DNA of 64,000 nucleotides from assembly GCA_041671765.1 (NCBI GenBank), contig JBAZAX010000002.1, positions 3,609 through 67,608 on the forward strand, written 5' to 3'. This document shows, piece after piece, positions 532 through 60,234 of the stretch. Position 1 is the stretch's first letter, and every line of letters starts with the position of its first letter. This stretch comes from Candidatus Babeliales bacterium. GTDB taxonomy: Bacteria; Babelota; Babeliae; Babelales; RVW-14. The notes beneath the pieces are model-generated. The model was not told the DNA's origin. It did not search any database and was given only the letters and a program-made list of their open reading frames with translations. Made by a program: the position numbers and the translations under genes.

Positions 532-612
532 CTAATCCATGGATCCCAGCCTTCGCTTTGAAATAGCTTCGGCGGGCAGGCCTGGAACAAGTTCAGGATG
601 ACAGATCTCTAA
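532..612. repeat. GC-rich dispersed repeat copy (modules D-end + C + D-core)
   Basis: 'CTAATCCATGGATCC', 'CAGCCTTCGCTTTGAAATAGCTTCGGCGGGCAGGCC' and 'TGGAACAAGTTCAGGATGACAG'. Supplies the mvk C-terminal tail and stop codon. Confidence 0.8.
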
Positions 613-1680
613 TCGAAAGCTACTTTTGGCATCCACATCACTTTTAGTAGCATCAATCTGCGTTTTTATAACAAAATATCCACGATCGTCAAAAAACGCA
701 GCAATTTTTGACTGCAAGTCAATTTCAGGAGTAAGCGCAAAAACCAATCCCCCTCGACCGGTTCCGGTAAGTTTTGCACCCAACGCACCAAGTGCGAGAG
801 CTTTATCAACAATTACATCAAGCTCCGGACACGAAACTCCAATCGCTTGTAACAGACTATGATTTTTGTTCATGCACACGCCAAGTTTTTCTAAATTATT
901 ACGCTCAAGTGCATCAATACCTAGATTAAAAATACTTTTATATTTATTAAATATTTCTTTGGTTTTATCCGGTTTTTTTTCAATAAAATCACGCACAGCC
1001 AACACAACTTGTTTTGTATCTGTTTGCTTGCCACTATCGATAATTACAATCCTAATCGGGTTAGAAATTTGAATTTTTGAATAAGAAAAGGCGGGAGTAA
1101 ATAGACCCGCTCGTGCCTGTACGTGTATCGAACCACCGCCCAGCGGGCGACGGGCAGCGTTTTGGGAAAATTTTATTACACCCCCAAAAACTGCCGCTGT
1201 ATTATCAATGCCACTTGGAGTACCATGAACTGCAGATTCTCCAACGAATGCCGCTTGATTTATATTTTCGTCGCTCAAATTAAGTTTAAATTTAGAATTT
1301 ATTGCACGAGCAAAAGATGTTGCCGCTGCAGCACTTGCGCCAATGCCACCACACGTTACAGGTAATGTACCCGTAAACGTTACAGTAAAATTTTTTTCTT
1401 TTATTTCAAAAAAATTCAGAATATTCTCGCACATGCACCTGTATTCAGCTTTTTTGCTGGAAATAAAACCAGGGGATTTCGGCCTGTTGTCAATTAAAAC
1501 TAAATGGTTATAAGAAGTTTTTTGAAAGTTATCTGGAGAGTTATCTTGAATTTCAGCGTAAGTTTTTAAATTAAGCGATGCGACAAGTGCAGGTAACCCA
1601 TGCACAACAAAATGCTCACCCAGCAAAATGATTTTTCCATATCCAAAATTATGCGCTTTTTCCAAATTATCTAACTTCAT
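532..1680 (-). CDS. mvk: Mevalonate kinase (GHMP kinase family)
   Basis: N-terminal 'GKIILLGEHFVVHG' and GHMP ATP loop 'PVTCGGIGASAAAATS'. ATGA 4-nt overlap with the upstream DUF35 gene. The last ~25 codons and an internal ~23-codon patch are encoded by GC-rich repeat copies. Confidence 0.85.
   Translation of the reverse strand: MKLDNLEKAHNFGYGKIILLGEHFVVHGLPALVASLNLKTYAEIQDNSPDNFQKTSYNHLVLIDNRPKSPGFISSKKAEYRCMCENILNFFEIKEKNFTVTFTGTLPVTCGGIGASAAAATSFARAINSKFKLNLSDENINQAAFVGESAVHGTPSGIDNTAAVFGGVIKFSQNAARRPLGGGSIHVQARAGLFTPAFSYSKIQISNPIRIVIIDSGKQTDTKQVVLAVRDFIEKKPDKTKEIFNKYKSIFNLGIDALERNNLEKLGVCMNKNHSLLQAIGVSCPELDVIVDKALALGALGAKLTGTGRGGLVFALTPEIDLQSKIAAFFDDRGYFVIKTQIDATKSDVDAKSSFRLEICHPELVPGLPAEAISKRRLGSMD
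1091..1160. repeat. GC-rich dispersed repeat copy (B-like + E-like), in frame inside mvk
   Basis: 'AGACCCGCTCGTGCCTGTACGTGTATCGAACCACCGCCCAGCGGGCGACGGGCAGCG'. Compare 'GAACCCGCTCGTGGTGAGCTTGTCGAACCAT' at 17847-17877. Confidence 0.6.
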
Positions 1681-4320: not shown

Positions 4321-4338
4321 TATCAACTCTTTTTGTAA

Positions 4339-4457
4339 TCCTGCCTGTCCGCCACGTGTCGGCCATAGCCACCTGGGCGACGGCTGATAGCTCTTCGCGC
4401 TCATGGTGAGCCAGTCGAACCACGGCTGGGAACTTGATTCAGGATCAATGGATTAAC
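4339..4457. repeat. GC-rich dispersed repeat copy (E + B-like + D)
   Basis: 'CCTGCCTGTCCGCCAC..GGGCGACGGC', 'GGTGAGCCAGTCGAACCAC' and 'TTGATTCAGGATCAATGGATTAAC', immediately upstream of the HMG-CoA synthase start. Confidence 0.75.
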
Positions 4458-12742: not shown

Positions 12743-12767
12743 AAAATAATAAAAGTAGGGAGAAGAG

Positions 12768-14336
12768 ATGATTGAAGTAATAAAAAGATACAAGTGGTTT
12801 TTGATTGGACTTTTTGCATTTGCACTGTTTATACGCGCTGCAATTTTCGTTGGATATTTAGGTAAAAATCAAAATTTTTGGCAAGTTGATTCAAATACAT
12901 ATCATCTAATCGCAGAACAAATTTCGCAAGGGCATGGAATATGCACAGATCCAGGACATCCTAATTTTTATCGACTTCCAGGATATTCTTTATTCCTGTC
13001 CGCATTTTATAAAATATTTGGACCTGATACAAAAAATGTTTTATGGTTGCAAATTTTTATGGCCGCATTAATTCCGCTTCTGATTTTTTTACTCGGATGT
13101 ATACTTTTCCCGCAAAATATATTAATTGCAAAAACTGCCGGCATTTACGGTAGCATTCATATTGGTTATGTCCTTTATTCAGGGTTTTTCATGGCTGAAA
13201 GCCTATTTATTTTTTTATTCTTAATTTTTGCCATTTTATTTTTATCTTCCGTTCACTTATTTTTTTGTTTTCAAAACAGATGTAACTGCAAAGAATCTGA
13301 TAAAATCTTTCGGTATTTTAGCCTACCTGACCCCATTGCAACAAGTGAACCCTATCTAAGTCTTTTTGAAGACATGTTTGAAAACGAACAAAAAAACGTA
13401 GTACTGTGCAACTGCCAAGAAACAGAACTAATAAAATCATCTCGCAATCTTTTAGGGGCGGGATTTGCGCTTGGACTCGCATCTCTGGTACGCCCAGTTG
13501 GGCATTATTTAATCTGTCTTTCAATTTTGATATTAATTTTTTCAAACGAAACATGTAGGCAAAAGATCAGTAAAAGTTTTACGCTTTTTTGCGGATGGAT
13601 TGTTCCGGTTATCTTCTGGCTTGCACGTAATTTTATACTCACCGGACATATATTCTTTCATACACTTCCCGGCGGACATTTTCTTTATTTTTCTGCAAGT
13701 CGAGTTGCAATGCATGAATGCCATTGTTCTTATGACCAAGCAAAAGATATTTTGAGAAAAAAAGTAGATGAGATAGTGACACAAGAAGAACAAATTAAAC
13801 ACAAAAAGCTATCCGAAATAGAACAGTGCGACATTCGAGAAAATCTTGCTAAGCAGTATTTTAAAAAATACCCAGCATTGTCAATCAAACTCTGGTTAAC
13901 TGATATATTTCGAACTGCGACTTCGCTTTACAGCGCCGAGCTACTTTATATTGAATCCGGACGAAAAGAAATTGATTATTTTAATGCAAAACGAACTATC
14001 AAATCTATGGTATACAAATATCTTGTCCCACAAACGGAAAAATCCTGGCTTCGATGGTTAATAAGACTAGAAATTTTGGTATTTTTTTTAATGATTCTTG
14101 GACTCTTTTTGGGATTTTTAAGAACGGTTTTTAGATGCATTAAAAACTGGGACAGCGAGATAAATAGAATTAACCTCTGCTCGTGGCTCCGAAGCCTTGC
14201 ATTTGCAACTTTTTTCATTGTAATCGGACTCGCGGGAGGGTATGCACGGATGCGATTGCCTGCAGAGGTATTTTTAATTATTTTATCTATGAGCTTTTGG
14301 GTGCCAATGCTTACAGAATTTAAAAATAAATCATGA
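12768..14336 (+). CDS. GT-C-like polytopic membrane glycosyltransferase (PMT_2/ArnT-like), paralog 1
   Basis: Many hydrophobic helices and an early loop 'FYRLPGYSLFLSAFYKIFG'. Shares 'LVRPVGHYL', 'ARNFILTGHIFFHTL' and 'GGYARMRLP' with ORF 17227-18756. Confidence 0.65.
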   Translation: MIEVIKRYKWFLIGLFAFALFIRAAIFVGYLGKNQNFWQVDSNTYHLIAEQISQGHGICTDPGHPNFYRLPGYSLFLSAFYKIFGPDTKNVLWLQIFMAALIPLLIFLLGCILFPQNILIAKTAGIYGSIHIGYVLYSGFFMAESLFIFLFLIFAILFLSSVHLFFCFQNRCNCKESDKIFRYFSLPDPIATSEPYLSLFEDMFENEQKNVVLCNCQETELIKSSRNLLGAGFALGLASLVRPVGHYLICLSILILIFSNETCRQKISKSFTLFCGWIVPVIFWLARNFILTGHIFFHTLPGGHFLYFSASRVAMHECHCSYDQAKDILRKKVDEIVTQEEQIKHKKLSEIEQCDIRENLAKQYFKKYPALSIKLWLTDIFRTATSLYSAELLYIESGRKEIDYFNAKRTIKSMVYKYLVPQTEKSWLRWLIRLEILVFFLMILGLFLGFLRTVFRCIKNWDSEINRINLCSWLRSLAFATFFIVIGLAGGYARMRLPAEVFLIILSMSFWVPMLTEFKNKS

Positions 14337-14416
14337 TTTTTCCAGCCTAATTTCTGCATTTGCATATTTGTGGTATTCTTCCAATTATTATATAAAAAAA
14401 ATACCTATCAACGGCT

Positions 14417-14908: not shown

Positions 14909-14920
14909 AAAGAACCACTA

Positions 14921-16543
14921 ATGCCTAAGGAAAAACGTACGCTACACACATACTTATTGCTAGCTCTCTTTCTGTTCTCAACTTTCTCGTTCATTAAATC
15001 AGACATCAAAGAAATTGATTCTATAGCTCAAGTTAAAGAAGAATTTCAAAGTGCTAACAACAAAACCCTGGTCATCTTCGATATGGATGATACTTTAATT
15101 GTTCCTGTTGATAAAATATTTTATGTCATGAAGTGCGTTAACAGAAATATCAATGATTTTGACGAGCAAGATAAGGAATTTGTAAAACAACTTAGACTTG
15201 GTGCAGAACGACTCATTTCGGACAAAAGAGATCAAAATTATGCAATAAGACTTGAAAGTTCGATAGATTCCAAAACAAGATTTGTTCCCACGGAAGATGA
15301 TACAGTCAAATTAATTAAAAATATGCAAAATCGAAACGTTAAAGTTATTGCGCTTACCGCAGCAAAAACAGGAGTTTTTGGGGTGATTGATAATTTAGGC
15401 GAATGGCGCTTGAAAAATCTTGCAAGCATTGGACTTGATTTTAGCTCAAGCTTTAATATTCAAGAAATTATTTTTGATAAATTAAAAAAATCAAATTTTA
15501 GTGGATATCCTGAATATTACAAGGGAATATTGATGGCTGCAAATAATCCCAAGGGAAAGGTTCTAGCCTCATTCCTTGATAAGAATGACGACTGGAAACC
15601 AGATAAAATCATATTCCTTGATGATAGTTATAATAATTGCAAAAATGTTGATGAAGCCATGAAACAACTTGGTATACCAATTCAATGTTACTGTTATAGG
15701 GCTGCATTTAAAAATAAAATTAAGTTAAACCAGAAAGTTATAAGATATCAGTTTGACCACTGGATTAAACACGAAGAGTTTTTAACAGAACAAAAGGCAC
15801 TTGAAAAGATTGATAACGAGCCAGCATATATAATTTACGATTTTGAAAAAGAACAAGTTATAAAAGACGATGGCGACATCCAAACACAAGAGAGCCCATG
15901 TTCAACTTTCAAGATAGCATTAAGTTTAATGGGTTTTGATTCAGGAATTCTTAAAAATGAGAATGCGCCTGAATGGCACTATAAAGATGAATACAACGCA
16001 GAATTCGATTTTTGGCGATGCGCCCAAACCCCAAAATCATGGATCAAAAAATCTTGCATCTGGTACTCGCAAGTTTTAACATCCATACTCGGGCCAGAAA
16101 AATTTCAAAATCACGTGAACAGTTTTTGTTACGGGAACAAGGATGGTTCCGGCAATCCAGGTAAAAACGATGGACTTTCAAGATCATGGCTATGTTCAAA
16201 TTTAAAAATCTCGCCAACTGAGCAAATTGAATTTCTCAAAAATTTATTGAAAAAAACTCTGCCAGTTTCTGAATATGCGCATGAACAAACGCAAAATATT
16301 TTGTATATTTCAGATCTTACTGATGGATGGAAGTTGTACGGCAAAACTGGGGCTGGGATTTATGAAGGTGGCATCAAGAGTATTGGCTGGTTTATTGGTT
16401 GGATTACAAATAAACAAATCAAAAAAACACTTATTTTCGCATATCTAATCAAATCAAATAATGATAAAATTGTTGTGAACGGCAACTTGGCAAAAGAAAA
16501 CATTCTGAAAATTTTAACCGAGGGATGTCATGCAAATTGTTAA
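14921..16543 (+). CDS. Secreted fusion protein: HAD-like (DxDxT) domain + class D beta-lactamase/BlaR-sensor-like domain
   Basis: Signal-like N-terminus. HAD motifs 'VIFDMDDTLIVP' and 'IIFLDDSYNN'. The C-terminal half has the class D set 'STFK', 'SCI' (SxV-type), 'YGN', 'KTG' and 'GWFIGW'. Confidence 0.75.
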   Translation: MPKEKRTLHTYLLLALFLFSTFSFIKSDIKEIDSIAQVKEEFQSANNKTLVIFDMDDTLIVPVDKIFYVMKCVNRNINDFDEQDKEFVKQLRLGAERLISDKRDQNYAIRLESSIDSKTRFVPTEDDTVKLIKNMQNRNVKVIALTAAKTGVFGVIDNLGEWRLKNLASIGLDFSSSFNIQEIIFDKLKKSNFSGYPEYYKGILMAANNPKGKVLASFLDKNDDWKPDKIIFLDDSYNNCKNVDEAMKQLGIPIQCYCYRAAFKNKIKLNQKVIRYQFDHWIKHEEFLTEQKALEKIDNEPAYIIYDFEKEQVIKDDGDIQTQESPCSTFKIALSLMGFDSGILKNENAPEWHYKDEYNAEFDFWRCAQTPKSWIKKSCIWYSQVLTSILGPEKFQNHVNSFCYGNKDGSGNPGKNDGLSRSWLCSNLKISPTEQIEFLKNLLKKTLPVSEYAHEQTQNILYISDLTDGWKLYGKTGAGIYEGGIKSIGWFIGWITNKQIKKTLIFAYLIKSNNDKIVVNGNLAKENILKILTEGCHANC

Positions 16544-16841
16544 AGAAAAAATCTCGATTCCAGAGTTAAAGGCAATGTCTAAAAAAATGTTTGGTGACAT
16601 GGTAAAAGCAGTTGTAGACATTGAAAAAGAAATTATGGTTGTGGATGCTATTATGCACGCTGATGAAGAACATCTACTTTTGGAAGAAGGCTCCGAACAA
16701 GGAAATCTCTGGGGCATAAACATTTACCCTGAAAAGATGTGGGATCAACGATGGATCGTGTTTGACTCAATGGTAAATCTTCGTCCTTCTTGGGGAAACA
16801 AGACTCGGGTGTTGATAATCCACAAATTCAAGAAAAAATAA
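16530..16841 (+). CDS. Small conserved hypothetical protein (DUF5674-like by recollection)
   Basis: 103-aa ORF whose ATG overlaps the upstream stop by 14 nt. The family assignment is from memory of 'VVD...MHADEE..LLE.GS.Q..LWG.N'. Confidence 0.5.
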   Translation: MQIVKEKISIPELKAMSKKMFGDMVKAVVDIEKEIMVVDAIMHADEEHLLLEEGSEQGNLWGINIYPEKMWDQRWIVFDSMVNLRPSWGNKTRVLIIHKFKKK

Positions 16842-16869
16842 AAAAAATAGTAACAAAATTGGTGACAAA

Positions 16870-17208
16870 ATGATTATACATAAAGGTCTTACGCATGAAC
16901 GCTGGTTTAAATTTTCACTTATGGAGCAACTGGCAAATATCGGCAGCGACATCGAACGTACAATTCAATGGAAAACCGATGGGGATATGGAATATAGCAA
17001 AAAGGCATTTGAACGCGCGCTAGAGTTATTGTACTTTACAATTGAAGACCCCAAAAACAGCGGCCCGCGACTTAGAGAGATTTTACGTGCACGTGAGGCC
17101 CTCATTGACCATTTCGTATACGACAATGAATACAACACAACGGATGAGCAATGGCAACAGTATTTTTATGATTTTAATTATGCAGCGGCTCTGGAACGCG
17201 GGAGATAA
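16870..17208 (+). CDS. Small hypothetical protein
   Basis: 112-aa ORF with 'ERWFKFSLMEQLANIGSDIERTIQW'. No function recognised. Confidence 0.5.
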   Translation: MIIHKGLTHERWFKFSLMEQLANIGSDIERTIQWKTDGDMEYSKKAFERALELLYFTIEDPKNSGPRLREILRAREALIDHFVYDNEYNTTDEQWQQYFYDFNYAAALERGR

Positions 17209-17226
17209 AATTTAATATTTTCGAAA

Positions 17227-18756
17227 ATGGGAGTAGTAATGATCGAATTAATTAAAAAAGAAAAAAATTTTTTGCTACTTACGTTTTTTTTATCTCTTGC
17301 AATCAAAGTAATTTTCTTTCTAATTTTTCTCAAAAATAACTCCTGTTTATTAATGTTTGATTCAGGGCAGTATCACAAAGTCGCACTCAATATTTTATCG
17401 TGGACAGGTCAGACAAATTTTTACCGTATGCCAGGCTATCCGGTATTTTTAGCCGCTTGCTACAAAATTTTCGGGGTGCATCCCATTGCGGCTCTTATAA
17501 TGCAAATTATACTTGGCTCTCTAATTCCATTATTAGTATTTGCTCTTGCACTAGTATTGTTTGATAAATCAACATTTAACAGCCAGATAAAAACGGCTAA
17601 ACTTGCGAGTTTAGTTGCCTGTTTTGATCTTGGTTATATAATTTTCCCCGGACTAATCATGTCCGAAATATTATTTACTATGTTTTTCACGCTATTTCTA
17701 ATTTTATTTCTGTATAATTACACGCCATTTTTTTGCAAAAGCCCTCTTCTAAAAACATTAAGACAGCCCCTTCGACAGGCTCCCAGCCTTCGCTCAGAAT
17801 TAGCTTCGGCGGGCAGGCAGGGTGAGCGCGACGAGCACACTAAAGAACCCGCTCGTGGTGAGCTTGTCGAACCATTTCAACGGGTTCTTACATTTCCAAT
17901 TTCCAGATTGTTTTTGGCAGGAATAGCTCTCGGAATAGCTTGTCTGATCAGACCTGTTGGACATGGCCTGTTCTTAACATCAATTTTTATGCTGATGGTT
18001 TCAAAAGATAAATTTTTTGTAAAAATAAAATCTATAGCACTGTTTAGTACTGGGCTTGCATTCACATTGGGTATATGGATATTCAGAAATTTTCTTCTAA
18101 CCGGCTACATTTTTATGCACACACTTTCAGGCCCACATTTTTTAAATCATTCAGCAGTAAGGCTTTGCATGATGGATGAAAAAATAACTTATGAACAGGC
18201 ACAAAAAAAGGTTTACGCTGAACTTAAAAATCTTGAACCAGCAAAAACAAATGTACTGGGCAAGCCGTTGCAAGAAATCGAGCACTGCCAATTAGCGGAA
18301 AAGCTCGCAATATCTTACATGCTTAAGAACCCCGTACTTACAGTTCAACATTTTATATCAAACATGTTAAAAACAACATTTGGACTTTATAGCTCTGAGT
18401 TACTTGTAATAGACTCCGGCGGGCAACTCCCTGAATACAGTAATAATCGAAGTATTAAAAGCATTTTTAAACGTTTTTTGCTTCCTGACGTAAATAATAA
18501 ATTTATAATTTGGGTAATTTATTTTGAAATAATATTTTTTTTATTTATTTTACTTGGCCTAGCCATATTTATATTTATATCACCAATTGATCGCGGAAAA
18601 ATATGTACACTCATCAAAACACTGCCTTTTATCTGCTGCTTAATATTTTTGACTCTTTCATGCGGTTATGCGAGATTAAGATTGCCAATCGAATCATTTT
18701 TAATTATTTTAGCGATTAAAGAATGGCAACTTTTATTTTCTAAAAAAGGGGAGTAA
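17227..18756 (+). CDS. GT-C-like polytopic membrane glycosyltransferase, paralog 2 (carries in-frame GC-rich repeat)
   Basis: 'FYRMPGYPVFLAACYKIFG', 'LIRPVGHGL', 'FRNFLLTGYIFMHTL' and 'CGYARLRLP' parallel ORF 12768-14336. Codons at 17761-17890 come from a composite repeat. Alternative start ATG at 17239. Confidence 0.65.
   Translation: MGVVMIELIKKEKNFLLLTFFLSLAIKVIFFLIFLKNNSCLLMFDSGQYHKVALNILSWTGQTNFYRMPGYPVFLAACYKIFGVHPIAALIMQIILGSLIPLLVFALALVLFDKSTFNSQIKTAKLASLVACFDLGYIIFPGLIMSEILFTMFFTLFLILFLYNYTPFFCKSPLLKTLRQPLRQAPSLRSELASAGRQGERDEHTKEPARGELVEPFQRVLTFPISRLFLAGIALGIACLIRPVGHGLFLTSIFMLMVSKDKFFVKIKSIALFSTGLAFTLGIWIFRNFLLTGYIFMHTLSGPHFLNHSAVRLCMMDEKITYEQAQKKVYAELKNLEPAKTNVLGKPLQEIEHCQLAEKLAISYMLKNPVLTVQHFISNMLKTTFGLYSSELLVIDSGGQLPEYSNNRSIKSIFKRFLLPDVNNKFIIWVIYFEIIFFLFILLGLAIFIFISPIDRGKICTLIKTLPFICCLIFLTLSCGYARLRLPIESFLIILAIKEWQLLFSKKGE
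17761..17890. repeat. Composite GC-rich repeat (module A interrupted by module C, then hairpin module B), in frame in GT-C paralog 2
   Basis: 'CCTTCGACAGGCTC' + 'CCAGCCTTCGCTCAGAATTAGCTTCGGCGGGCAGGC' + 'AGGGTGAGCGCGA' ... 'AAGAACCCGCTCGTGGTGAGCTTGTCGAACCATTTCAACGGGTTCTT'. Confidence 0.85.
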
Positions 18757-20235
18757 ATGGTATCAAGCAAAAAAAGAGCCTTAATCATAGGGGCTGGACC
18801 TGCGGGTCTTACCGCTGGTTATGAGCTTTTAAAAACACAAAAATTTAGCGCAGAAATCATAGAAAAAGATAATCAGATCGGCGGACTTGCAAAAACAGTC
18901 AATTACAAAAATTACAAGTATGACATTGGGCCCCATCACTATGTCACAGAATCAAAAGAAATTGAAAAATGGTGGAAAAATATAATAAGTGAAGATGAAT
19001 TTATAAAATTAAATCGTTTTACACGAATTTATTACAATAAACATTTTTTCTTGTACCCGCTTCAACCAATCAACGCATTAATGGGATTAAGTCCATTTGA
19101 GTCAATACACTGCGTTTCTAGTTATTTTCGATATAAGTTATGGCCTAAAAAAGTTAATTCTTATGAAGACTGGCTCTCGAATAGGTTCGGGAAAAGGCTT
19201 TTTGAAATATTTTTTAAATCGTACACAGAAAAGCTTTGGGGAATAAAATGCGATCAGATTTCTGCCGACTGGGCTGCACAAAGAATTAAAAATTTTTCAC
19301 TTGGCAAGGCAATGTTTTTTGCATTCTTCGGAAAACTTTTCAAAAAATATACGCCCCGAACAATTTTAGGCGAATTTTATTATCCAATTTATGGCGCAGG
19401 AACATTGTGGGATAATGTTGGTAAAAAAATAATAAATTCTGAATTCGGCTCAATTCACACCAATAAAAAAGTTATGTCAATTGAACATGACGGTAAAAGT
19501 ATTTTGGGCGTATTAACAAAAAATATGTCTGATGAAAACCAACACAGCGAAATACAACACATGTCGCAAAAATTAACTCGATATGAAGCAGACTACTTTT
19601 TATCAACAATGACTTTACGTGACTTGGTTTTAAACATGGATCCAATCGCGCCCAAAGAAGTTGTTAATGCTGCCATGCAACTACGTTGCAGAGCGCTTAT
19701 AACACTCAACTTAATTATAGATAAAGAAAAGATTACGCCTGACCACTGGCTTTACATTCATGAAAAAAGTGTTCGTACAATAAGAATTGGAAATATGAAC
19801 AATTTTTCAGCCAAATTAAGACCTAATGAAAATCACTCTGCAATAAGCCTTGAGTGCTTTACGTTTACTGATGAGCCATTCTGGATTAAGACAGATGAAG
19901 AGTTACTTGAACAAGCAAAACTCGAAATTGATAAAATAGGTCTTGTGAAAAAAGAATTAATTATTGACGGCATGGCATTAAGAATTCCCGATGCCTACCC
20001 AATTTATGAAGGCAATTACAAAGAATATTTAAATATCGTTTATAACTATCTTGGTAAATTTAAAAATCTTAAATTGATGGGCAGGAATGGCATGCACCAG
20101 TATAACAACATGGACACTGCAATGCTTTCTGCCATGAAAGCTGTTGATGAAATTATTAGTTATGAAGATAAATATAAAACCAAAATAAATTTAAAAACAA
20201 AAACACAGAAGCATTCTGAAGCACAACTTAATTAA
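18757..20235 (+). CDS. FAD/NAD(P)-binding oxidoreductase (amine-oxidase/desaturase-like)
   Basis: Dinucleotide-binding 'ALIIGAGPAGLTAGYEL' followed by 'EKDNQIGGLAKT'. The ATG overlaps the upstream stop (TAAATG). Confidence 0.7.
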   Translation: MVSSKKRALIIGAGPAGLTAGYELLKTQKFSAEIIEKDNQIGGLAKTVNYKNYKYDIGPHHYVTESKEIEKWWKNIISEDEFIKLNRFTRIYYNKHFFLYPLQPINALMGLSPFESIHCVSSYFRYKLWPKKVNSYEDWLSNRFGKRLFEIFFKSYTEKLWGIKCDQISADWAAQRIKNFSLGKAMFFAFFGKLFKKYTPRTILGEFYYPIYGAGTLWDNVGKKIINSEFGSIHTNKKVMSIEHDGKSILGVLTKNMSDENQHSEIQHMSQKLTRYEADYFLSTMTLRDLVLNMDPIAPKEVVNAAMQLRCRALITLNLIIDKEKITPDHWLYIHEKSVRTIRIGNMNNFSAKLRPNENHSAISLECFTFTDEPFWIKTDEELLEQAKLEIDKIGLVKKELIIDGMALRIPDAYPIYEGNYKEYLNIVYNYLGKFKNLKLMGRNGMHQYNNMDTAMLSAMKAVDEIISYEDKYKTKINLKTKTQKHSEAQLN

Positions 20236-20268
20236 AAATGCAATCATGGAAGCCATTTGAGAGTTACT

Positions 20269-22248
20269 ATGTGTGGACTAGCCGGATATCTAAATTTAGA
20301 TAACAAAAATTTTACTGTCGATGAAGAACTTTTAAATAAAATGCAGCAGGCAATTGCGCATAGAGGACCCGATGCTCATCAAATTTACAAATCCGACGAA
20401 CACCAGTTGGGCCTGGCTTATAGGCGTTTATCAATTATTGATTTGTCTCCATCCGGAAACCAGCCAATGTTTGATAAACAAAAAACTGTTGTTGTTTGTT
20501 TTAATGGTGAAATATATAACTATAAAGAGTTAAGAGCTGAACTTGAAAGCTTAAATTACGAATTTTTCTCAAAATCTGATACCGAAACAATCTTATACGC
20601 ATACAAAGAATGGGGAATAAATTTTGTACATAAGCTCACCGGTATGTTTGCAATCTGCTTGTACGATTTTGAAAAACGTGAATTGTACTTGATTCGCGAT
20701 AGAATTGGGGTCAAACCACTCTACTTTTCATTACAATCAAATATTTTGGGTTTTGCATCTGAAATTAAGGCTTTATGGTGTTTGCCTTGGTTAAAAAACG
20801 AGATTAATCCAATTGCACAGTATCACTATCTAACATTCATGGTAACGCCGGCACCATACACGATCTATAAAGACATTTATAAACTCCCAGCAGGATTTTA
20901 CCTAAAAGTTGATTCCAATAAAAATACGACTTTTCAAGAGTGGTATAATCCGGTAAAACAAATTTCATCCACAGAAAAAAAACAGTTCGAATCTGAAGAT
21001 TTTTGCATAGAAAATATTACTAAATTATTAATAGAATCAACAAAAAAAAGAATGATTGCCGATGTTCCGGTCGGCGCATTTCTGTCCGGAGGCATTGATT
21101 CAAGCTTAAACGTAGCACTTATGTCACAATATGCGCATTTAGTAAAGACATTTACAGTTGCCTTTTCGGATGGACCTGAGTCCAACGAAATTAAATGGGC
21201 ACGGCTGGTAGCCAAAATATTTGGAACAGATCATCATGAAATAATCATCTCAGAAAAAGAGGCTTTTGATTTTTTCGAGAAGATGGTTTATCACCTGGAC
21301 GAACCTCTGGCGGACTGCGTCTGTATACCATTTTATTATGTTTCCAAATTAGCTCGCGAAAAAGGAATTGTGGTTGCACAAGTGGGAGAAGGGGCTGATG
21401 AGCTGTTCTTTGGATATAGCACGTACGCTACATACAAAAAATTTTATGATAAAATTTGGCATCCAACTCAAAAAATAATTCCTGCATTTGCACGCCAAGC
21501 AGCACAAACTCTGTTAAATCCATTTTTAAAATCGAATCCAACCAAATCAGAATTAATACAAAATTGGGCACATAATCGTGAACTTTTTTGGGGTGGCGCA
21601 ATTGCATTCAACGAACAACACAAAAACTTTTTGTATAACAAAAAATTATATACCAAAAAAACAGATCCGCTTTTTGATCCAATTGTCGAACAAATTTATC
21701 CGGGCATGCAACAAAATTTTGATAGTTTTTCAATTGTGAAATACCACATGTCAAAACTGAAACAACTCGATCCCTCTGCAGATTTCTGTAAAAAAATGCT
21801 TTATCTCGAACTTAAACAAAGGCTCCCGGAACTGCTTTTAATGAGAGCGGACAAAATGTCGATGGCCCAAGGGCTTGAAGCACGCGAACCATTTTTGGAT
21901 CACAAGCTTGTTGAATTCATGTTAAATGTTCCTGCTCACCTAAAATTCAAAAATAATACAACAAAATATCTTTTAAAAAAAATATGTCGCGGAATTTTAC
22001 CTGACGAGATAATAGATCGTAAAAAAGTCGGATTTGCAGCCCCAACAGTGCGTTGGCTAAATAACGGAAAATACTTTCCTGCTTATTTTGAAAAACTAAG
22101 TCAAAAATCAAACTCTATTCAAGCTAATGTGCCAACTAATCCGGGAAGAACTGCTCTGGAAAAATTATACAAAAACAATGTTTACAGTTTTGCCGTACAA
22201 AAGTGGACTTTACAAAATCTATGGGCAATTAAAAATATAGATAATTAA
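20269..22248 (+). CDS. Asparagine synthase (glutamine-hydrolysing)-family amidotransferase
   Basis: 'MCGLAGY' places the class II amidotransferase Cys right after Met, so I prefer ATG 20269 to TTG 20257. PP-loop 'FLSGGIDSS'. Confidence 0.85.
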   Translation: MCGLAGYLNLDNKNFTVDEELLNKMQQAIAHRGPDAHQIYKSDEHQLGLAYRRLSIIDLSPSGNQPMFDKQKTVVVCFNGEIYNYKELRAELESLNYEFFSKSDTETILYAYKEWGINFVHKLTGMFAICLYDFEKRELYLIRDRIGVKPLYFSLQSNILGFASEIKALWCLPWLKNEINPIAQYHYLTFMVTPAPYTIYKDIYKLPAGFYLKVDSNKNTTFQEWYNPVKQISSTEKKQFESEDFCIENITKLLIESTKKRMIADVPVGAFLSGGIDSSLNVALMSQYAHLVKTFTVAFSDGPESNEIKWARLVAKIFGTDHHEIIISEKEAFDFFEKMVYHLDEPLADCVCIPFYYVSKLAREKGIVVAQVGEGADELFFGYSTYATYKKFYDKIWHPTQKIIPAFARQAAQTLLNPFLKSNPTKSELIQNWAHNRELFWGGAIAFNEQHKNFLYNKKLYTKKTDPLFDPIVEQIYPGMQQNFDSFSIVKYHMSKLKQLDPSADFCKKMLYLELKQRLPELLLMRADKMSMAQGLEAREPFLDHKLVEFMLNVPAHLKFKNNTTKYLLKKICRGILPDEIIDRKKVGFAAPTVRWLNNGKYFPAYFEKLSQKSNSIQANVPTNPGRTALEKLYKNNVYSFAVQKWTLQNLWAIKNIDN

Positions 22249-22264
22249 AAATTATGGAACACTT

Positions 22265-33573: not shown

Positions 33574-34014
33574 TTATCTGTTTTTTTTATGAATAGATCT
33601 CTTCTGCAACTTAAGAACCCGTTGAAATGGTTCGACAAGCTCACCACGAGCGGGTTCTTCAAAATGTTCATCGCGCTCACCCTGAGCTTGTCGAAGGGTC
33701 TGCTTGCTTGCATTTAGAAGAGATCTAGTAACTTCTTGTGTAACACTTATGCCAAGCCTTACCAATACACTGGATAGATCAAAATTTTGTGTATCAATTT
33801 TTATCATTTTGTTCCTCGATGTTGCGCCACGCAATATTTTAAAACAATCAGTAGAGATCCCAAGTGCTTTACTTAGTAGCTTTACCAATTCCTCATTTGC
33901 CTTCCCACCTTCTGGCTTACTTTTTAATCTGCACTTAATAATTCCGGATTTATCTTGCTCAAAGCCCTGCTGTTTGGAGTTTGGAACAACTTTTAACTCA
34001 ATAACTACAGACAT
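33574..34014 (-). CDS. DUF167 (YggU-like) protein with repeat-encoded C-terminal extension
   Basis: 'LKVVPNSK...KCRLKSKPEGGKANEELVKLLSKALG' is the DUF167 core. The last ~45 codons ('LRQAQGERDEHFEEPARGELVEPFQRVL') are read from a GC-rich repeat. Confidence 0.7.
   Translation of the reverse strand: MSVVIELKVVPNSKQQGFEQDKSGIIKCRLKSKPEGGKANEELVKLLSKALGISTDCFKILRGATSRNKMIKIDTQNFDLSSVLVRLGISVTQEVTRSLLNASKQTLRQAQGERDEHFEEPARGELVEPFQRVLKLQKRSIHKKNR
33611..33705. repeat. GC-rich repeat (modules B + A, opposite orientation to 17761-17890)
   Basis: 'AAGAACCCGTTGAAATGGTTCGACAAGCTCACCACGAGCGGGTTCTT' has 9-bp inverted arms. It is followed by 'TCGCGCTCACCCTGAGCTTGTCGAAGGG'. Confidence 0.85.
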
Positions 34015-34552: not shown

Positions 34553-34640
34553 TTTCTTTTAATGTTTAAACTTAAATAACGCCAACTCGATAATTAGTGA
34601 AAGAGCTGTGCAAATCTAAAACGACTTTCAATTGTAGATT

Positions 34641-34675
34641 TGTCATCCTGAATTTATTTCAGGATCCATGGATTA
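34641..34675. repeat. Module D copy
   Basis: 'TGTCATCCTGAATTTATTTCAGGATCCATGGATTAG' has an internal hairpin (CCTGAA/TTCAGG). Its end is identical to 532-546 in reverse complement. Confidence 0.8.
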
Positions 34676-34881: not shown

Positions 34882-36906
34882 TCACTGGCTCGAAACAATA
34901 AACACTCTGCTATCAAATTGATCAAGATCAATCTGACTCAAAAGTTTGTGTATGCTAGAAAACGTTTGTGATTTTAGAAATATCTGTCTGATTTCAACAT
35001 TCTGGATTTTAGAAATCACAGGTTGAGCAGGTCCAAGTATCTGAATTTTTAAATCTTGAGAGTCGTTAATTTTATTCAAAATATCTGCAATAGAATTGGC
35101 ATCTCTATCAAGTTGAATATCAGAATTATTTTTTATCTCTATCTGAACGAGTCGGCCAAATGGTGGATAACAAATTTCTTTACGTAAAACGGCTTCGTCC
35201 TCACAAAATTTAAGATAATCAATCTCATTCAAATAATTGAAAATTTTATGATCTTTCATCATCTGAATTATTACAGTACTGGGAAGCTGCCCACGCCCTG
35301 CCCGACCTGCAACCTGAATAAGTTGCTGAATTGAAGTTTCAGCCGCGTTATAAATGGGCATGTGTAGGTTCAAATCTGCCCACAGCACCCCAACAAGTGT
35401 AACACGCGGGAAATGATACCCCTTGGTAATAGTCTGAGTTCCAATAAGAATATCTATTTTCCCCTGCTCAAAATCTTCCACCGTTTGATACCATGACCTT
35501 TTTTGGCTTGTGGTATCAAGATCTGCTCGCGCAATAATGGCAGTGGGAAAAAGTTCTTGAAATATTTTAACAGCTTGCTGCGTCCCCACGCCCTTTTTTA
35601 AAAAATTCTTCTGATCAGACTTACAATCAGGGCATGCTGCCGGTAATGGCTTTTGAAAATCACAGTAGTGACATCGTAGCGTTTCCTGACCATAGTGCGA
35701 ATGCAATGTTAAACTCACGGAACAGTTTGAACACTGAAAAACATGCCCACAGTCTTTGCATTGCACAAAAAAGCTGTACCCTCGTCTATTCAGATAAATA
35801 ATTGCCTGCTCTTTGCGGCTTAGGCAATCCCTAATCGCAGTTTCAAGCTCTCGAGACACCCAAAAATTACTTCGTCTTTGGTCTTTTTGCGATTTTAAAA
35901 TTACTTTTTTAATCTCCGGAAAACTACCCGCAAATCTCTTTGTTATATTAAAAAGCTTCCAGCCTTTTGTTTGCACATTATGCAAAGAACTAAGTGATGG
36001 GGTGGCTGATCCAAGAAGAATTGGAATTTTATAGATACTAGCACGCCAAATTGCAATCTCTTTACTATTCAAGCGTGGATGTTTTTTTTCTAAAAAACCA
36101 TGCTCGTGTTCTTCGTCTATAATTATCAAGCCCAAATTATTTACTGGCAACATTATTGGCATATGTACGCCAATAATTAATGCAGGCTCGTTTTTTAGTA
36201 ATCCATTCCACAAAGCCCGCCGATCTGCAGGCTTACTGGCCGAATGAAAACCGATGACTTTCGAATTGGGAAGTTTTTTTTGAAAAATACGCTCAAATTG
36301 CAAACTAAGTGAAACTTCGGGAAGAAGCAGCAAAACGCTTTTGTTATTATTAATACACTCTTGAATTAAATTACTATAAACTTCGGTTTTGCCTGATCCG
36401 GTAACCCCATGGATTAATGTGGGTTTATAATCAGGATTTTTTACAAACGGTTTTAGGTAATCAACCACAAGCTGTTGCTCATCAGTTAATTGCACGTTAT
36501 GAGGAACAATTGTTTGGATAGATCCTGAATCAAGTTCAGGATGACAAAGAGGCGCATCCTGCCTGCCCGCCACAGCCTTGGCGACGGCGGGTGTTTTTTT
36601 GTCTGCGAAAAAGCCTCTAATTCGTTGGTAAAAATGCAAACTGGGAACAAAATAAAATTTTGAAATTTTTTCGATAAATTCCGCGTATTTTATATCATCA
36701 GGAAATTGCTGCAATCCCAAAATCTCTCTTACATTGAAATCAGAGTAAAAATTTGAATCAATCTGGACAACATAAGCCAGATGCTGAGATGTCTTGAGGG
36801 GAACTTTAATAAGTGCCCCAACTCCAATTTTGCCTTCAAGCTCTTCAGGAATTTTGTATGTTAACGGTCGCTGAAATCCATTTAAGAGAAGAACGGTTGC
36901 AAACAT
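34882..36906 (-). CDS. priA: Primosomal protein N' (replication restart helicase PriA)
   Basis: Walker A 'HGVTGSGKTEVY', 'IIDEEHE', Cys-rich insert 'CKDCGHVFQCSNCSVSLTLH...CHYCD' and 'QVAGRAGRG'. Carries an in-frame GC-rich repeat at 36521-36594. Confidence 0.9.
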   Translation of the reverse strand: MFATVLLLNGFQRPLTYKIPEELEGKIGVGALIKVPLKTSQHLAYVVQIDSNFYSDFNVREILGLQQFPDDIKYAEFIEKISKFYFVPSLHFYQRIRGFFADKKTPAVAKAVAGRQDAPLCHPELDSGSIQTIVPHNVQLTDEQQLVVDYLKPFVKNPDYKPTLIHGVTGSGKTEVYSNLIQECINNNKSVLLLLPEVSLSLQFERIFQKKLPNSKVIGFHSASKPADRRALWNGLLKNEPALIIGVHMPIMLPVNNLGLIIIDEEHEHGFLEKKHPRLNSKEIAIWRASIYKIPILLGSATPSLSSLHNVQTKGWKLFNITKRFAGSFPEIKKVILKSQKDQRRSNFWVSRELETAIRDCLSRKEQAIIYLNRRGYSFFVQCKDCGHVFQCSNCSVSLTLHSHYGQETLRCHYCDFQKPLPAACPDCKSDQKNFLKKGVGTQQAVKIFQELFPTAIIARADLDTTSQKRSWYQTVEDFEQGKIDILIGTQTITKGYHFPRVTLVGVLWADLNLHMPIYNAAETSIQQLIQVAGRAGRGQLPSTVIIQMMKDHKIFNYLNEIDYLKFCEDEAVLRKEICYPPFGRLVQIEIKNNSDIQLDRDANSIADILNKINDSQDLKIQILGPAQPVISKIQNVEIRQIFLKSQTFSSIHKLLSQIDLDQFDSRVFIVSSQ
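36521..36594. repeat. GC-rich repeat (modules D + E), in frame inside priA
   Basis: 'GATCCTGAATCAAGTTCAGGATGACAAAG' + 'CATCCTGCCTGCCCGCCACAGCCTTGGCGACGGCGGG'. Translated as 'AVAKAVAGRQDAPLCHPELDSGS'. Confidence 0.8.
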
Positions 36907-58716: not shown

Positions 58717-60234
58717 ATGATTAAGATATCAATTATCACCGTTTTTCCTGAATTACATGAAAATTTCATTAACACGAGCTTGATTCAACGTGCCGTTAAA
58801 CAAGAAATTATTCAATTCAATCTCGTGCGTTTTTCAGACATGTGTCAACCCAAAGAACGAATTGACGAACCAACCGTTGGACATGGCGCCGGAATGATAA
58901 TTAAGCCTGAAGTTATCCAAAAGGCAATTGATCAGTGCCAAGAAAAGTGGGGTTCCGGATTTAAAATCTTTTTTTCGCCTCAGGGACAAAGACTTGATCA
59001 ACGCAAACTAAGCAATATTTATAAAAAATTGATATCCCGGGACCAAAATCAACAAGATCAAACTGGTAAATCTAACCAAGGACAAGCCATCGTATCCGCT
59101 CCTATAAGCACCACTGAGCCTTTTCCAGAATCAGACGCGTCACCTATCGGTGATGGTTCGACAAGCTCACCACGAGCGCGCCAGCTTGATGGCACTCTTC
59201 CTGAGCCTATCGAAGGATGCGAGCTTCAGAAGAGATATACTGAATCAGATCTTCATTTAATACTTATATGTTCTCGATACGAAGGCATCGACGAACGCGT
59301 AGAAAGTTTTTATGCAGACATGACAGTATCAATCGGCGACTATGTATTAATGGGCGGAGACCTTCCAGCACAGGTCTTCTTGGAAGGACTTTTGCGATTG
59401 ATTCCAAATGTTGTTGGAAAAACAGCTTCTGTAGAGAACGAATCGTTCCAGGGAGCTTTTTTTGACCACCCTGAATATGGGCTGCCAGTTGAATGGAATC
59501 AACTGAAAATTCCGGATGTATTGCGTTCAGGGAATCACAAGCAAATAGCAATATGGCGAAAAGAACAGGCTGTTAAAAAAACAATTTTAAATAGATTTGA
59601 TTGGATACAAGAAAGTCACCCGGATGAAACGGATCTTGAACTTTGCAGAAAATTTATTCCTAACCATTATGTCGTAATAATGCACTCCCAAGTTATTGTT
59701 GGAGACGGGCATAAAGTTGGGCACACATCTGTGGCATCAATAGACATTCACGACATCGCCCGCAGTTGTAAAACATATGGCATCAAGAATTTTTTTATTG
59801 TTACGCAGCTTGAAGATCAGTTCAAGATCGTAAACACATTTTTTGATTTTTGGCATTCCAAAAAAGGCAAAGATTACAACTTAAGCCGCTACAACGCGAT
59901 CGAATCCGTGATTTTAACAAAATCATTCGAGTCAGTACGGGAACAAATTAAACAAAAAGAGAATCTGGATCCTATCATAATTACAACATCTGCAAAATCT
60001 CATGGAAACGGCGTAAAAATTGATTACTTCAGCCAAGGACTTGTTTGGCAAGAGAATCGACCGGTTTTGATTGTTTTTGGCACAGGACAGGGGCTCAGCG
60101 ATGAAATAATGGATCAAAGTAATTTTATCCTCACCCCGGTTCGTGGCCTTACCAGTTACAACCATCTTTCTGTAAGATCTGCTGCTGCAGTTATTCTTGA
60201 CAGATGGCTTGGATTAAATTCAAAAGTTGAGTAA
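58717..60234 (+). CDS. trmD: tRNA (guanine37-N1)-methyltransferase TrmD fused to a second SPOUT-like (TM1570/Methyltrn_RNA_4-like) domain
   Basis: TrmD part: 'ISIITVFPELHENF', 'VGHGAGMIIKPE' and 'LICSRYEGIDERV'. C-terminal ~200 aa: 'VASIDIHDIARSCKTYGIKNFFIV', 'VFGTGQGLSDE' and 'YNHLSVRSAAAVILDRW'. 505 aa in total. Confidence 0.8.
   Translation: MIKISIITVFPELHENFINTSLIQRAVKQEIIQFNLVRFSDMCQPKERIDEPTVGHGAGMIIKPEVIQKAIDQCQEKWGSGFKIFFSPQGQRLDQRKLSNIYKKLISRDQNQQDQTGKSNQGQAIVSAPISTTEPFPESDASPIGDGSTSSPRARQLDGTLPEPIEGCELQKRYTESDLHLILICSRYEGIDERVESFYADMTVSIGDYVLMGGDLPAQVFLEGLLRLIPNVVGKTASVENESFQGAFFDHPEYGLPVEWNQLKIPDVLRSGNHKQIAIWRKEQAVKKTILNRFDWIQESHPDETDLELCRKFIPNHYVVIMHSQVIVGDGHKVGHTSVASIDIHDIARSCKTYGIKNFFIVTQLEDQFKIVNTFFDFWHSKKGKDYNLSRYNAIESVILTKSFESVREQIKQKENLDPIIITTSAKSHGNGVKIDYFSQGLVWQENRPVLIVFGTGQGLSDEIMDQSNFILTPVRGLTSYNHLSVRSAAAVILDRWLGLNSKVE
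59135..59232. repeat. GC-rich repeat (module B core and related sequence), in frame inside trmD
   Basis: 'GGTTCGACAAGCTCACCACGAGCG' is identical to 33639-33662. It is followed by 'GAGCCTATCGAAGGATGCGAGCTTCAG'. Confidence 0.75.

What the first reader, a model, noticed from the sequence alone, without database searches (positions are those of the whole stretch)
17761..17890. Nested or composite repeat inside a GT-C membrane protein, at a loop that is also variable in its paralog
At 33664-33705 (reverse complement), module A reads continuously as 'CGACAAGCTC|AGGGTGAGCGCGA'. At 17771-17833 the same junction is split by 36 nt ('CGACAGGCTC' + 'CCAGCCTTCGCTCAGAATTAGCTTCGGCGGGCAGGC' + 'AGGGTGAGCGCGA'). 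The inserted sequence is module C, which is also present at 547-583. So one element appears to have inserted into another, and the composite is still in frame ('LRQPLRQAPSLRSELASAGRQGERDEHTKEPARGELVEPFQRVL').

The paralog at 12768-14336 has an unrelated Cys-rich insert ('FQNRCNCKESD...VVLCNCQETE') at the equivalent position, just before 'L(V/I)RPVGH'. This loop therefore seems to tolerate insertions.
Basis: seen in the sequence. Interest (0 to 1): 0.65.

Follow-up and report, generated by a model that had tools for sequence, protein, structure and literature searches.

The report
Nested palindromic repeats inside a glycosyltransferase gene
A membrane glycosyltransferase gene of an intracellular Babeliales bacterium carries a recent in-frame 132-base insert made of one short GC-rich palindromic repeat sitting inside another, a case of selfish repeat DNA tolerated in a disordered protein loop, as already known from Rickettsia.

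Summary
At 17771-17831, 36 nt (module C, 17783-17818) split the junction CGACAGGCTC|AGGGTGAGCGCGA. That junction is contiguous in the module A copy at 33612-33707(-). A second C copy lies at 546-581.

The host is a GT-C-fold glycosyltransferase of a Candidatus Babeliales MAG. Orthologs at 62-72% identity lack the 44 codons, so the insert is recent. It maps to a low-confidence loop, inferred to be cytoplasmic.

A and C are separate repeat families found in many phyla:
- A's junction was contiguous in 200 of 210 sampled copies; only the window copy carried C.
- C has sharp ends in 92 different contexts and mostly stands alone.
- C also interrupts a third repeat, module B, which fits the CGTC-type REP definition.
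- C sits at the same A position in two other metagenome contigs.

"Long versus short form" is therefore rejected and nesting is supported. How or when C entered is not shown: no A-only allele and no transposase were found.

At least five genes in the window carry repeat-derived coding segments. The paralog's Cys-rich loop is an old conserved feature, not an insertion.

Verdict: a new member of a known kind (RPE-like intragenic REP/REPIN elements). The side finding is that the modules are nearly identical across phyla.

The parts
17227..18756 (+). Host gene: a 509-aa GT-C-fold membrane glycosyltransferase (ArnT/PMT-like). One NCBI annotation starts at 17239, giving 505 aa.
   Evidence: ORF. Homologs are named ArnT-like and some carry PF13231. 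AF2 model has pLDDT 91.1 and pTM 0.90. Top Foldseek PDB hits are AglB, ArnT, Pmt4, Pmt1/2 and STT3.
17758..17889 (+). Lineage-specific in-frame insert of 132 nt (44 codons, residues 178-221): A interrupted by C.
   Evidence: Absent from orthologs L242, L243, L244 and P0002-P0009. pLDDT is 49-65 across about 171-222. Only 1 of 6 frames is stop-free, and it is the host frame.
17744..17770 (+). Possible left extension of the A element (CTCTTCTAAA..CA..AAG.CAG.CCC), shared with the copy at 33696-33722(-).
   Evidence: Pairwise alignment. Coordinates. The boundary is uncertain.
17771..17782 (+). A, left unit, outer arm: TTCGACAGGCTC.
   Evidence: In the RNA fold it pairs with GAGCTTGTCGAA at 17860-17871.
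17783..17818 (+). Module C: a 36-nt REP-like hairpin unit, CCAGCC...GGCGGGCAGGC, nested in A. Its ends are ambiguous by one C.
   Evidence: The ends coincide with the family-wide ends CC[C/A]GCC...GGCGGGCAGGC.
17819..17831 (+). A, left unit, inner part: AGGGTGAGCGCGA.
   Evidence: Identical to 33671-33683(-).
17850..17875 (+). A, right unit: CGCTCGTGGTGAGCTTGTCGAACCAT.
   Evidence: Identical at 33627-33652(-) and 59153-59178(-). The same 25-mer pattern occurs in at least 119 stretches from many phyla.
17873..17890 (+). A tail: CATTTCAACGGGTTCTTA. CGGGTTCTT at 17881-17889 is complementary to AAGAACCCG at 17843-17851.
   Evidence: The DNA fold uses this outer stem.
33612..33707 (-). Reference copy of A without C (96 nt). 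It forms the C-terminal extension of a DUF167 protein (33574-34014).
   Evidence: It folds as a long hairpin: DNA -18.7 kcal/mol, z -2.95; RNA -33.5 kcal/mol, z -2.76.
535..649 (+). Module B-long copy interrupted by the second C copy (546-581). It extends the GHMP-kinase ORF by 38 aa.
   Evidence: (D8, I2). Absent from ortholog L244 and present in relative L127.
34595..34672 (-). Uninterrupted B-long copy, intergenic after a tRNA cluster. Its core is TGTC-ATCCTGAA-TTTAT-TTCAGGAT-CCA.
   Evidence: (I2, I6).
4334..4446 (-). Mosaic upstream of the HMG-CoA synthase gene. B is interrupted at GTTC^AGGAT by a C-type unit together with an A unit.
36520..36591 (-). Canonical C-type unit (36561-36591) next to a B unit (36520-36548), read in frame inside PriA.
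59140..59225 (+). A variant in reverse orientation, in frame inside the TrmD domain (GDGSTSSPRARQLDGTLPEPIEGC).
   Evidence: The Pfam TrmD match is split into two stretches. The same peptide type sits in the L244 GHMP kinase.
12768..14336 (+). Paralog with a conserved Cys-rich loop at the equivalent position. The loop is not repeat-derived.

Best explanation
**What it is.** The 132 nt at 17758-17889 are selfish, non-autonomous palindromic repeat DNA that landed in the gene recently. They survive because they sit in frame and stop-free in a disordered loop of a GT-C glycosyltransferase. I infer that loop to be cytoplasmic, between TM4 and TM5.

**How it is built.**
- Module A is a REPIN-like doublet: two inverted units of about 26 nt, CCCTTCGACARGCTCAGGGTGAGCG and CGCTCRTGGTGAGCYTGTCGAACCA. 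They pair into a long hairpin.
- Module C is a separate REP-like hairpin unit of 31-36 nt, CC(C/A)GCC...GGCGGGCAGGC.
- C lies at GCTC^AGGG, which is the internal loop between the outer and inner stems of A.

**Shown.** The two modules are independent. C is nested within A. C recurs at the same A position in other genomes. The insert is absent from orthologs, and the protein fold is intact.

**Inferred.**
- The units are mobilised in trans as single-stranded hairpins by a REP-type (HUH/Y1, RAYT-like) enzyme or a similar hairpin-recognising one.
- Selection removed every insertion that broke the reading frame.
- The encoded 44 aa have no function of their own.
For: **The insert is recent.**
- Eight orthologs at 62-72% identity have a loop of 13-18 aa where the window protein has 44 extra codons.
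- Residues about 171-222 have pLDDT 49-65 in an otherwise confident model with mean pLDDT 91.

**The host fold is GT-C.** The top PDB matches are AglB, ArnT and Pmt4.

**A's junction is normally contiguous.**
- It is contiguous in 200 of 210 sampled sites, and only the window copy holds C.
- None of the 14 interrupted candidates in viral contigs holds C.

**C is a discrete unit.**
- 92 distinct contexts show conserved ends and random flanks.
- Most of the 91 sampled copies are not next to A.

**Each interrupted copy has an intact counterpart in this genome.**
- A: 33612-33707 is intact and 17771-17890 is interrupted.
- B: 34595-34672 is intact and 535-649 is interrupted, with the same 36-nt ends.

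**The nesting sites recur.**
- GCTC^AGGG in A: the window, L215 (GC 0.35) and L223 (GC 0.59).
- GTTC^AGGAT in B: L246 and window 4334-4446.

**Structure and frame.**
- The RNA fold of the composite keeps the outer A stem and gives C its own branch.
- Only the host frame is free of stop codons.

**The behaviour is general in this lineage.**
- PriA, TrmD, a DUF167 protein and a GHMP kinase in the window also carry repeat-derived coding segments.
- These segments differ between relatives.

**Precedent.** Intragenic REPs, REPs nested in other palindromes, and RPEs are documented (PMC3733652; PMC10969869).
Against: - No transposase or other mobilising gene was found. No protein family recurs near the repeats in 239 loci.
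- No target-site duplication or clean empty site can be read, because the host loop has diverged.
- No allele with A but without C was found, so A::C may have entered the gene as one ready-made piece.
- Junctions share short CAG/CAGG strings. That would also fit template switching or recombination.
- A and C carry neither a GTAG nor a CGTC tag, so the REP/RAYT link is an analogy only.
- The cytoplasmic placement rests on helix counting and charge bias, not on a topology predictor or experiment.
Confidence: 0.72

Rival explanations
1. One element with a long and a short form. On this view the 36 nt are an optional internal segment of A and there was no nesting event.
For: A::C composites with C at the same junction exist in two other metagenome contigs, L215 and L223.
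Against: - 200 of 210 A junctions are contiguous.
- C occurs mostly outside A, with sharp ends of its own, in contigs of 29-74% GC.
- The same C unit also interrupts the unrelated module B.
Confidence: 0.04
2. The composite arose by replication template switching or illegitimate recombination between repeat hairpins at short microhomologies (CAG/CAGG), not by a dedicated insertion enzyme. It may have formed elsewhere and then been copied into the gene as a unit.
For: - C ends in GGGCAGG(C), and the host sequence resumes with (C)AGG at A and at B sites.
- The mosaic at 4334-4446 mixes pieces of A, B and C.
- No transposase was found.
- No A-only allele was found.
Against: - C's ends are the same in 92 contexts with random flanks.
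- The window B::C junction (GGATC^CTGG) lacks the AGG motif.
- C has the same position and orientation in three unrelated genomes. That is easier to explain by site recognition.
Confidence: 0.2
3. The insert is an adaptive protein module. On this view the 44 aa give the glycosyltransferase a cytoplasmic interaction or regulatory loop and are kept for that reason.
For: - The segment is in frame, hydrophilic and identical in four assemblies.
- The paralog has a long conserved loop at the same place.
Against: - It is absent from all orthologs at 62-72% identity.
- The model predicts it to be disordered.
- The same DNA modules appear in unrelated genes, in intergenic DNA and in both orientations.
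- The peptide has no detectable protein relatives.
Confidence: 0.04

Closest known systems
Rickettsia palindromic elements (RPEs)
   Same: - Short palindromic repeats in an obligate intracellular bacterium.
- Inserted in frame into many unrelated housekeeping genes.
- Encode short peptides at positions compatible with the protein fold (PMC10969869; PMC3733652).
- Here at least five genes in 64 kb carry such segments.
   Different: - The phylum differs: Dependentiae/Babeliales rather than Alphaproteobacteria.
- Modules A and C are other sequence families, and they are shared with many free-living phyla.
- This case is a nested composite.
- Direct sequence comparison with RPE consensus sequences was not done.
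CGTC-tagged REPs (Di Nocera et al. 2013; this class includes RPE-4, RPE-6 and Neisseria dRS3)
   Same: - Module B reads TGTC + ATCCTGAA + TTTAT + TTCAGGAT + CCA. That matches the published definition: a tag, an 8-9 bp stem starting with AT, a 4-5 nt loop and a CCA tail.
- Intragenic copies are described in the paper, as is nesting of REPs inside other palindromes.
   Different: - Modules A and C, which are the parts in the finding, have no GTAG or CGTC tag and a different stem-loop geometry.
- In this case a REP-like unit interrupts B, not the reverse.
REPINs (REP doublets forming hairpins, mobilised by RAYT transposases; from my own knowledge, Bertels and Rainey 2011)
   Same: - A is two inverted units of about 26 nt that fold into one long hairpin.
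- It occurs as L..R, R..L and tandem arrangements.
- It lies mostly in intergenic DNA in other bacteria.
   Different: - No RAYT or other Y1 transposase was found near any copy.
- There is no GTAG head.
- The same unit is nearly identical across at least nine phyla, whereas REPINs are usually specific to a species or genus.
Bacterial MITEs
   Same: Small, non-autonomous, multi-copy, with inverted-repeat arms. They can create in-frame fusions.
   Different: - No target-site duplication is visible.
- At 36 nt, C is far below the usual MITE size.
- 97.4% of MITEs are genus-specific (PMC11602168), whereas A and C cross phyla.

Membership tests
GT-C glycosyltransferase (host protein) | Polytopic membrane protein whose fold resembles ArnT, PMT and oligosaccharyltransferase. 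| tested here: met
   AF2 model has pLDDT 91 and pTM 0.90. The best Foldseek PDB hits are AglB, ArnT, Pmt4, Pmt1/2 and STT3, with probability 1.00 and E from 2e-4 to 1e-2.
GT-C glycosyltransferase (host protein) | Conserved acidic residue in the first extracytoplasmic loop after TM1. | tested here: met
   D45 and Y49 in FDSxxYH are invariant in 68 homologs. That this loop is extracytoplasmic is inferred from the N-terminal KKEK and the helix order.
GT-C glycosyltransferase (host protein) | Match to a Pfam GT-C family such as PMT_2 (PF13231). | tested here: inconclusive
   The window protein has no Pfam hit. The paralog passes PMT_2 narrowly, at 27.2 bits against a cutoff of 26.1. Several homologs carry PF13231.
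RPE-like intragenic palindromic element | Palindromic, multi-copy repeat. | tested here: met
   There are three or four A copies and two or three C copies in 64 kb. The hairpin fold has z -2.95.
RPE-like intragenic palindromic element | Inserted in frame in a coding gene and absent from orthologs. | tested here: met
RPE-like intragenic palindromic element | Located where the protein fold tolerates it. | tested here: met
   The insert is a low-pLDDT loop in an otherwise confident model.
RPE-like intragenic palindromic element | Sequence homology to the Rickettsia RPE-1 to RPE-10 families. | not tested
Only module B fits the CGTC class, which includes RPE-4 and RPE-6.
CGTC-tagged REP | (C/T)GTC tag, 8-9 bp stem starting with AT, 4-5 nt loop and CCA tail, applied to module B. 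| tested here: met
   34641-34669 reads TGTC ATCCTGAA TTTAT TTCAGGAT CCA.
CGTC-tagged REP | The same criteria applied to modules A and C. | tested here: not met
   Neither unit has the tag or the stem-loop geometry. A units have a 5-bp GCTCA/TGAGC mini-stem. C has a 6-bp CCCGCC/GGCGGG stem, a loop of about 14 nt and an AGGC tail.
GTAG-tagged REP / REPIN | GTAG head next to the palindrome. | tested here: not met
   No GTAG is present in the A or C consensus.
GTAG-tagged REP / REPIN | Inverted doublet that forms a long hairpin. | tested here: met
   The A left and right units pair over 13 plus 6 bp.
GTAG-tagged REP / REPIN | Association with a RAYT (Y1 transposase) gene. | tested here: inconclusive
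   No recurrent ORF family was found near the repeats in 239 loci. Whole genomes could not be searched.
MITE | Terminal inverted repeats flanked by a target-site duplication. | tested here: inconclusive
   Inverted arms are present. No duplication is recognisable, because the host loop has diverged from the orthologs.

The most novel reading that the evidence does not exclude
A, B and C would belong to a pan-bacterial toolkit of near-identical 26-36-nt hairpin modules, present in at least nine phyla and on plasmids and predicted viral contigs. These modules would insert into one another at defined positions in hairpin arms or loops: GCTC^AGGG in A and GTTC^AGGAT in B. Each of those sites was seen in more than one locus or genome. 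That would imply an undescribed hairpin-targeting mobilisation mechanism that transfers horizontally and has no recognisable GTAG/RAYT signature. Babeliales would then be a second intracellular lineage, after Rickettsia, whose proteome is being remodelled by such elements.
Probability: 0.2. Interest if true: 0.7.

Novelty: new member of a known kind. Interest (0 to 1): 0.42.

Why it matters
- It extends the Rickettsia-type phenomenon, in which palindromic repeats are written into proteins, to Dependentiae. This is an unrelated phylum of obligate intracellular parasites of protists. The density is high: at least five genes in 64 kb.
- It gives clean within-genome pairs of interrupted and uninterrupted repeats. 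These show that REP-like units can target other REP-like units.
- The same short modules are almost identical in Chloroflexota, Acidobacteriota, Nitrospirota, Proteobacteria and others, and no associated transposase is visible. How such units move and spread between phyla is an open question, and these loci could help address it.
- For annotation: proteins of these genomes contain repeat-derived segments that should not be read as functional domains.

Tried and rejected
- **Rfam.** No family matched other than tRNAs. Nothing was significant at 17600-18050.
- **Literature.** Searches on the repeat DNA strings and on their translated peptides gave only primer coincidences or nothing.
- **Pfam and NCBIfam** on the repeat-encoded peptides gave no family.
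- **The search for homologous proteins** with the 47-aa insert peptide found no candidate.
- **phmmer** of the 44-aa insert against 1.84 billion representatives gave 0 hits. The peptide is too short for significance.
- **Search for a linked transposase.** I clustered 7,233 ORFs from 239 repeat-bearing loci. Only generic families recurred.
- **Search for an A-only allele.** All members of the 90% cluster either carry the identical composite or do not cover the site.
- **Viral-contig scan** for A junctions interrupted by 20-50 nt gave 14 hits. All were tandem units or chance matches, and none held C.
- **Target-site duplication** at the gene insertion could not be read, because the loop has diverged.
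- **Rejected: assembly chimera.** The composite is in four independent assemblies.
- **Rejected: long form versus short form.** The census contradicts it.
- **Rejected: A or C as GTAG/CGTC REPs.** The published criteria are not met.
- **Plasmid hits for C alone** were mostly weak, with E between 0.05 and 0.6, so I did not use them.
Full report
**1. Observation**

- 17771-17782 is TTCGACAGGCTC.
- 17783-17818 is the 36-nt CCAGCCTTCGCTCAGAATTAGCTTCGGCGGGCAGGC.
- 17819-17831 is AGGGTGAGCGCGA.
- On the minus strand at 33671-33695, the same flanks are joined without interruption.

The 36-mer recurs at 546-581 with 3 mismatches. No dinucleotide shuffle of the window gave a match. The two A copies are 92% alike over 73 nt.

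The ORF 17227-18756 reads through the composite, at residues 178-221. The same composite is in two independent ENA contigs. The identical peptide is in proteins of two NCBI MAGs. It is therefore not an assembly artefact.

**2. Host gene and organism**

The closest proteins are named as from Candidatus Babeliales (Dependentiae/TM6) MAGs. The window has about 35% GC.

The protein itself has no Pfam hit. Its paralog just passes PMT_2.

An AlphaFold2 model built from 68 homologs is confident, with pLDDT 91.1 and pTM 0.90. Its best PDB matches are all GT-C enzymes: AglB, ArnT, Pmt4, Pmt1/2 and STT3.

Eight orthologs at 62-72% identity, three of them examined at the DNA level, have a loop of 13-18 residues where the window protein has 44 extra codons. 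Gene order around them is conserved. The insert is therefore younger than that divergence.

In the model, residues about 171-222 are the only long low-confidence stretch, at pLDDT 49-65.

Topology is inferred as follows.
- I counted helices from a cytoplasmic, Lys-rich N-terminus.
- I used the positive charge of the loops at 112-124, at 258-266 and at the C-terminus.
- This places the TM4-TM5 loop (165-222) in the cytoplasm.
- All invariant residues (D45, Y49, R67, R242, R287, N288, R483, R485) then fall on the opposite face.

**3. The modules**

*Module A* is an inverted doublet.
- The left unit is CCCTTCGACARGCTCAGGGTGAGCG.
- The right unit is CGCTCRTGGTGAGCYTGTCGAACCA.
- The uninterrupted copy at 33612-33707(-) folds into a long hairpin: DNA -18.7 kcal/mol with z -2.95, and RNA -33.5 kcal/mol with z -2.76.
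- In this genome A also has an outer stem, AAGAACCCG/CGGGTTCTT. Shared sequence probably extends left to about 17744.

*Module C* belongs to a family with consensus CC(C/A)GCCTTCGCC-loop-CTTCGGCGGGCAGGC. In 92 distinct contexts its ends are invariant and the flanks are random.

*Module B* reads TGTC-ATCCTGAA-TTTAT-TTCAGGAT-CCA. This fits the published definition of CGTC-tagged REPs, the class that includes RPE-4 and RPE-6 (PMC3733652). Neither A nor C fits the CGTC or GTAG definitions.

**4. Is C nested in A?**

It fails.
- In the window plus 119 genome loci, TTCGACARGCTC occurs 210 times. It is followed directly by A[GC][GC] 200 times.
- Only the window copy has C there.
- In viral contigs the contiguous left unit occurs in 64 stretches. 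None of the 14 candidates interrupted by 20-50 nt contains C.

Conversely, most of the 91 sampled C copies are not associated with A.

Within this genome there are two matched pairs of intact and interrupted copies.
- A is intact at 33612-33707 and interrupted at 17771-17890.
- B-long is intact at 34595-34672 and interrupted at 535-649.
- The C ends are identical in both interrupted copies.

C-type units also recur at defined positions.
- GCTC^AGGG in A: the window, L215 (GC 0.35) and L223 (GC 0.59).
- GTTC^AGGAT in B: the ortholog gene on L246, in a different loop, and the mosaic at window 4334-4446.

With RNA parameters the composite folds as a three-way junction. The outer A stem is kept and C forms its own branch. 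C therefore sits at the internal loop between the two A stems.

These results support nesting of two independent units and reject the long-form/short-form reading.

**5. What is not shown**

- No allele with A but without C was found. C may have entered A inside the gene, or a ready-made A::C may have entered the gene.
- No target-site duplication can be read.
- No transposase-like family recurs near the repeats.
- Short shared CAG/CAGG strings at several junctions leave template switching or illegitimate recombination as a live alternative. I give it about 0.2.

**6. Why it stays in frame**

The uninterrupted A has three stop-free frames out of six. The composite has exactly one, and it is the host frame. 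A is 96 nt and C is 36 nt, both multiples of three. This is what survivorship predicts: insertions that break a needed gene are lost.

**7. A general habit of this genome**

Repeat-derived coding segments in the same 64 kb:

| Gene | Position of the repeat-derived segment |
|---|---|
| PriA (34882-36906) | Between the 3'BD and helicase domains |
| TrmD (58717-60234) | Splits the TrmD domain |
| DUF167 protein (33574-34014) | C-terminal extension |
| GHMP kinase (532-1680) | C-terminal extension |

The set differs between relatives. L244 lacks the kinase C-terminal extension, but it has an A-type insert at the N-terminus of the same kinase.

**8. Distribution**

The taxa are:
- mostly Dehalococcoidia;
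- also Acidobacteriota, Nitrospirota, Binatia, Elusimicrobia, Desulfobulbaceae and Anaeromyxobacter;
- several Proteobacteria;
- three other Dependentiae.

The A doublet is about 98% identical on Moraxella osloensis plasmids, where it is intergenic. Single A units also match plasmids of Sphingobium, Novosphingobium and Comamonas.

C occurs in contigs of 29-74% GC.

A survey of MITEs found 97.4% to be genus-specific (PMC11602168). This breadth is therefore unusual, although REP superfamilies spanning phyla have been reported (PMC3733652). I found no paper or Rfam family describing A or C.

**9. The paralog argument**

The Cys-rich segment of the paralog 12768-14336 is conserved in sequence and length in four relatives and contains no repeat module. 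The loop differs in length between paralogs. That is an old, constrained difference, not evidence of ongoing tolerance to insertions.

**10. Comparison and verdict**

In behaviour this is a Rickettsia-palindromic-element-like case. Precedents exist for intragenic REPs and for REPs nested in other palindromes.

It differs in phylum, in the sequence families involved and in being a nested composite.

I classify it as a new member of a known kind, of moderate interest. The less ordinary side finding is twofold: the modules are nearly identical across phyla, and one module recurs at the same position inside another.

Noticed in passing
window 17850-17875; loci L003-L121; L245: The right unit of module A (CGCTCRTGGTGAGCNNGTCGAACCA) is nearly identical in genomes of at least nine phyla. 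It also occurs on plasmids of Moraxella, Sphingobium, Novosphingobium and Comamonas. It is arranged as L..R, R..L or tandem arrays: four copies about 57 nt apart in L120, and an array in L033.
   Followed up: partly
L261-L317 (IMG/VR contigs): The left unit of A occurs in 64 stretches of predicted viral contigs. Phages or prophages could therefore be a route of spread between lineages.
   Followed up: no
L161 711-738, L179 88-115, L182 1222-1249, L222 about 5044-5071: In four low- to mid-GC metagenome contigs, a C-type unit lies directly upstream of a tRNA gene (tRNA-Gly three times, tRNA-Pro once). In the three Gly cases it overlaps the tRNA 5' end by 2 nt.
   Followed up: partly
L094, minus-strand orientation, about position 5414: In a Dehalococcoidia genome, a different small hairpin (ccccgcacttgatgcgggg) sits inside the A left unit at almost the same point: GCTCAG|...|GTGAGCGG.
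   Followed up: no
L246 3001-4461 (P0006): An ortholog of the host gene in another Babeliales genome carries a different nested composite in another loop: B interrupted by a C-type unit, encoding KILNQVPAVAKAMADTQDDKRQ.
   Followed up: yes
window 58717-60234: The tRNA methyltransferase TrmD is fused to a second SAM-dependent RNA methyltransferase domain (PF09936) in one 505-aa protein. Its TrmD domain is split by about 75 residues that include an A-type repeat.
   Followed up: partly
window 1090-1170: There is a degenerate A-like GC-rich patch inside the GHMP kinase (AARRPLGGGSIHVQARAGLFTP). It is shared with the L244 ortholog, so it is probably an older decayed insertion.
   Followed up: partly
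window 532-4404; L244 60-5119: Mevalonate-pathway genes are clustered next to the glycan cluster: GHMP kinase, thiolase, HMG-CoA synthase and HMG-CoA reductase.
   Followed up: no
window 11759-23600; L242, L243 and L244: A conserved glycan-synthesis cluster holds three GT-C paralogs, an epimerase, an amine-oxidase-like flavoprotein, an asparagine synthase and a sugar nucleotidyltransferase. Small genes between the first two paralogs differ between relatives, for example toxin-antitoxin pairs in L243 and L246.
   Followed up: no
window 40309-40452: A 12-nt-period tandem repeat encodes a Lys/Ala-rich tail (KKAAKKVVKKVAKK...) at the end of a gene.
   Followed up: no
window 4512-7183: Two tandem paralogous WD40-repeat genes are 72-81% identical at the DNA level (repeat families D1-D3 and D5-D7).
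   Followed up: no
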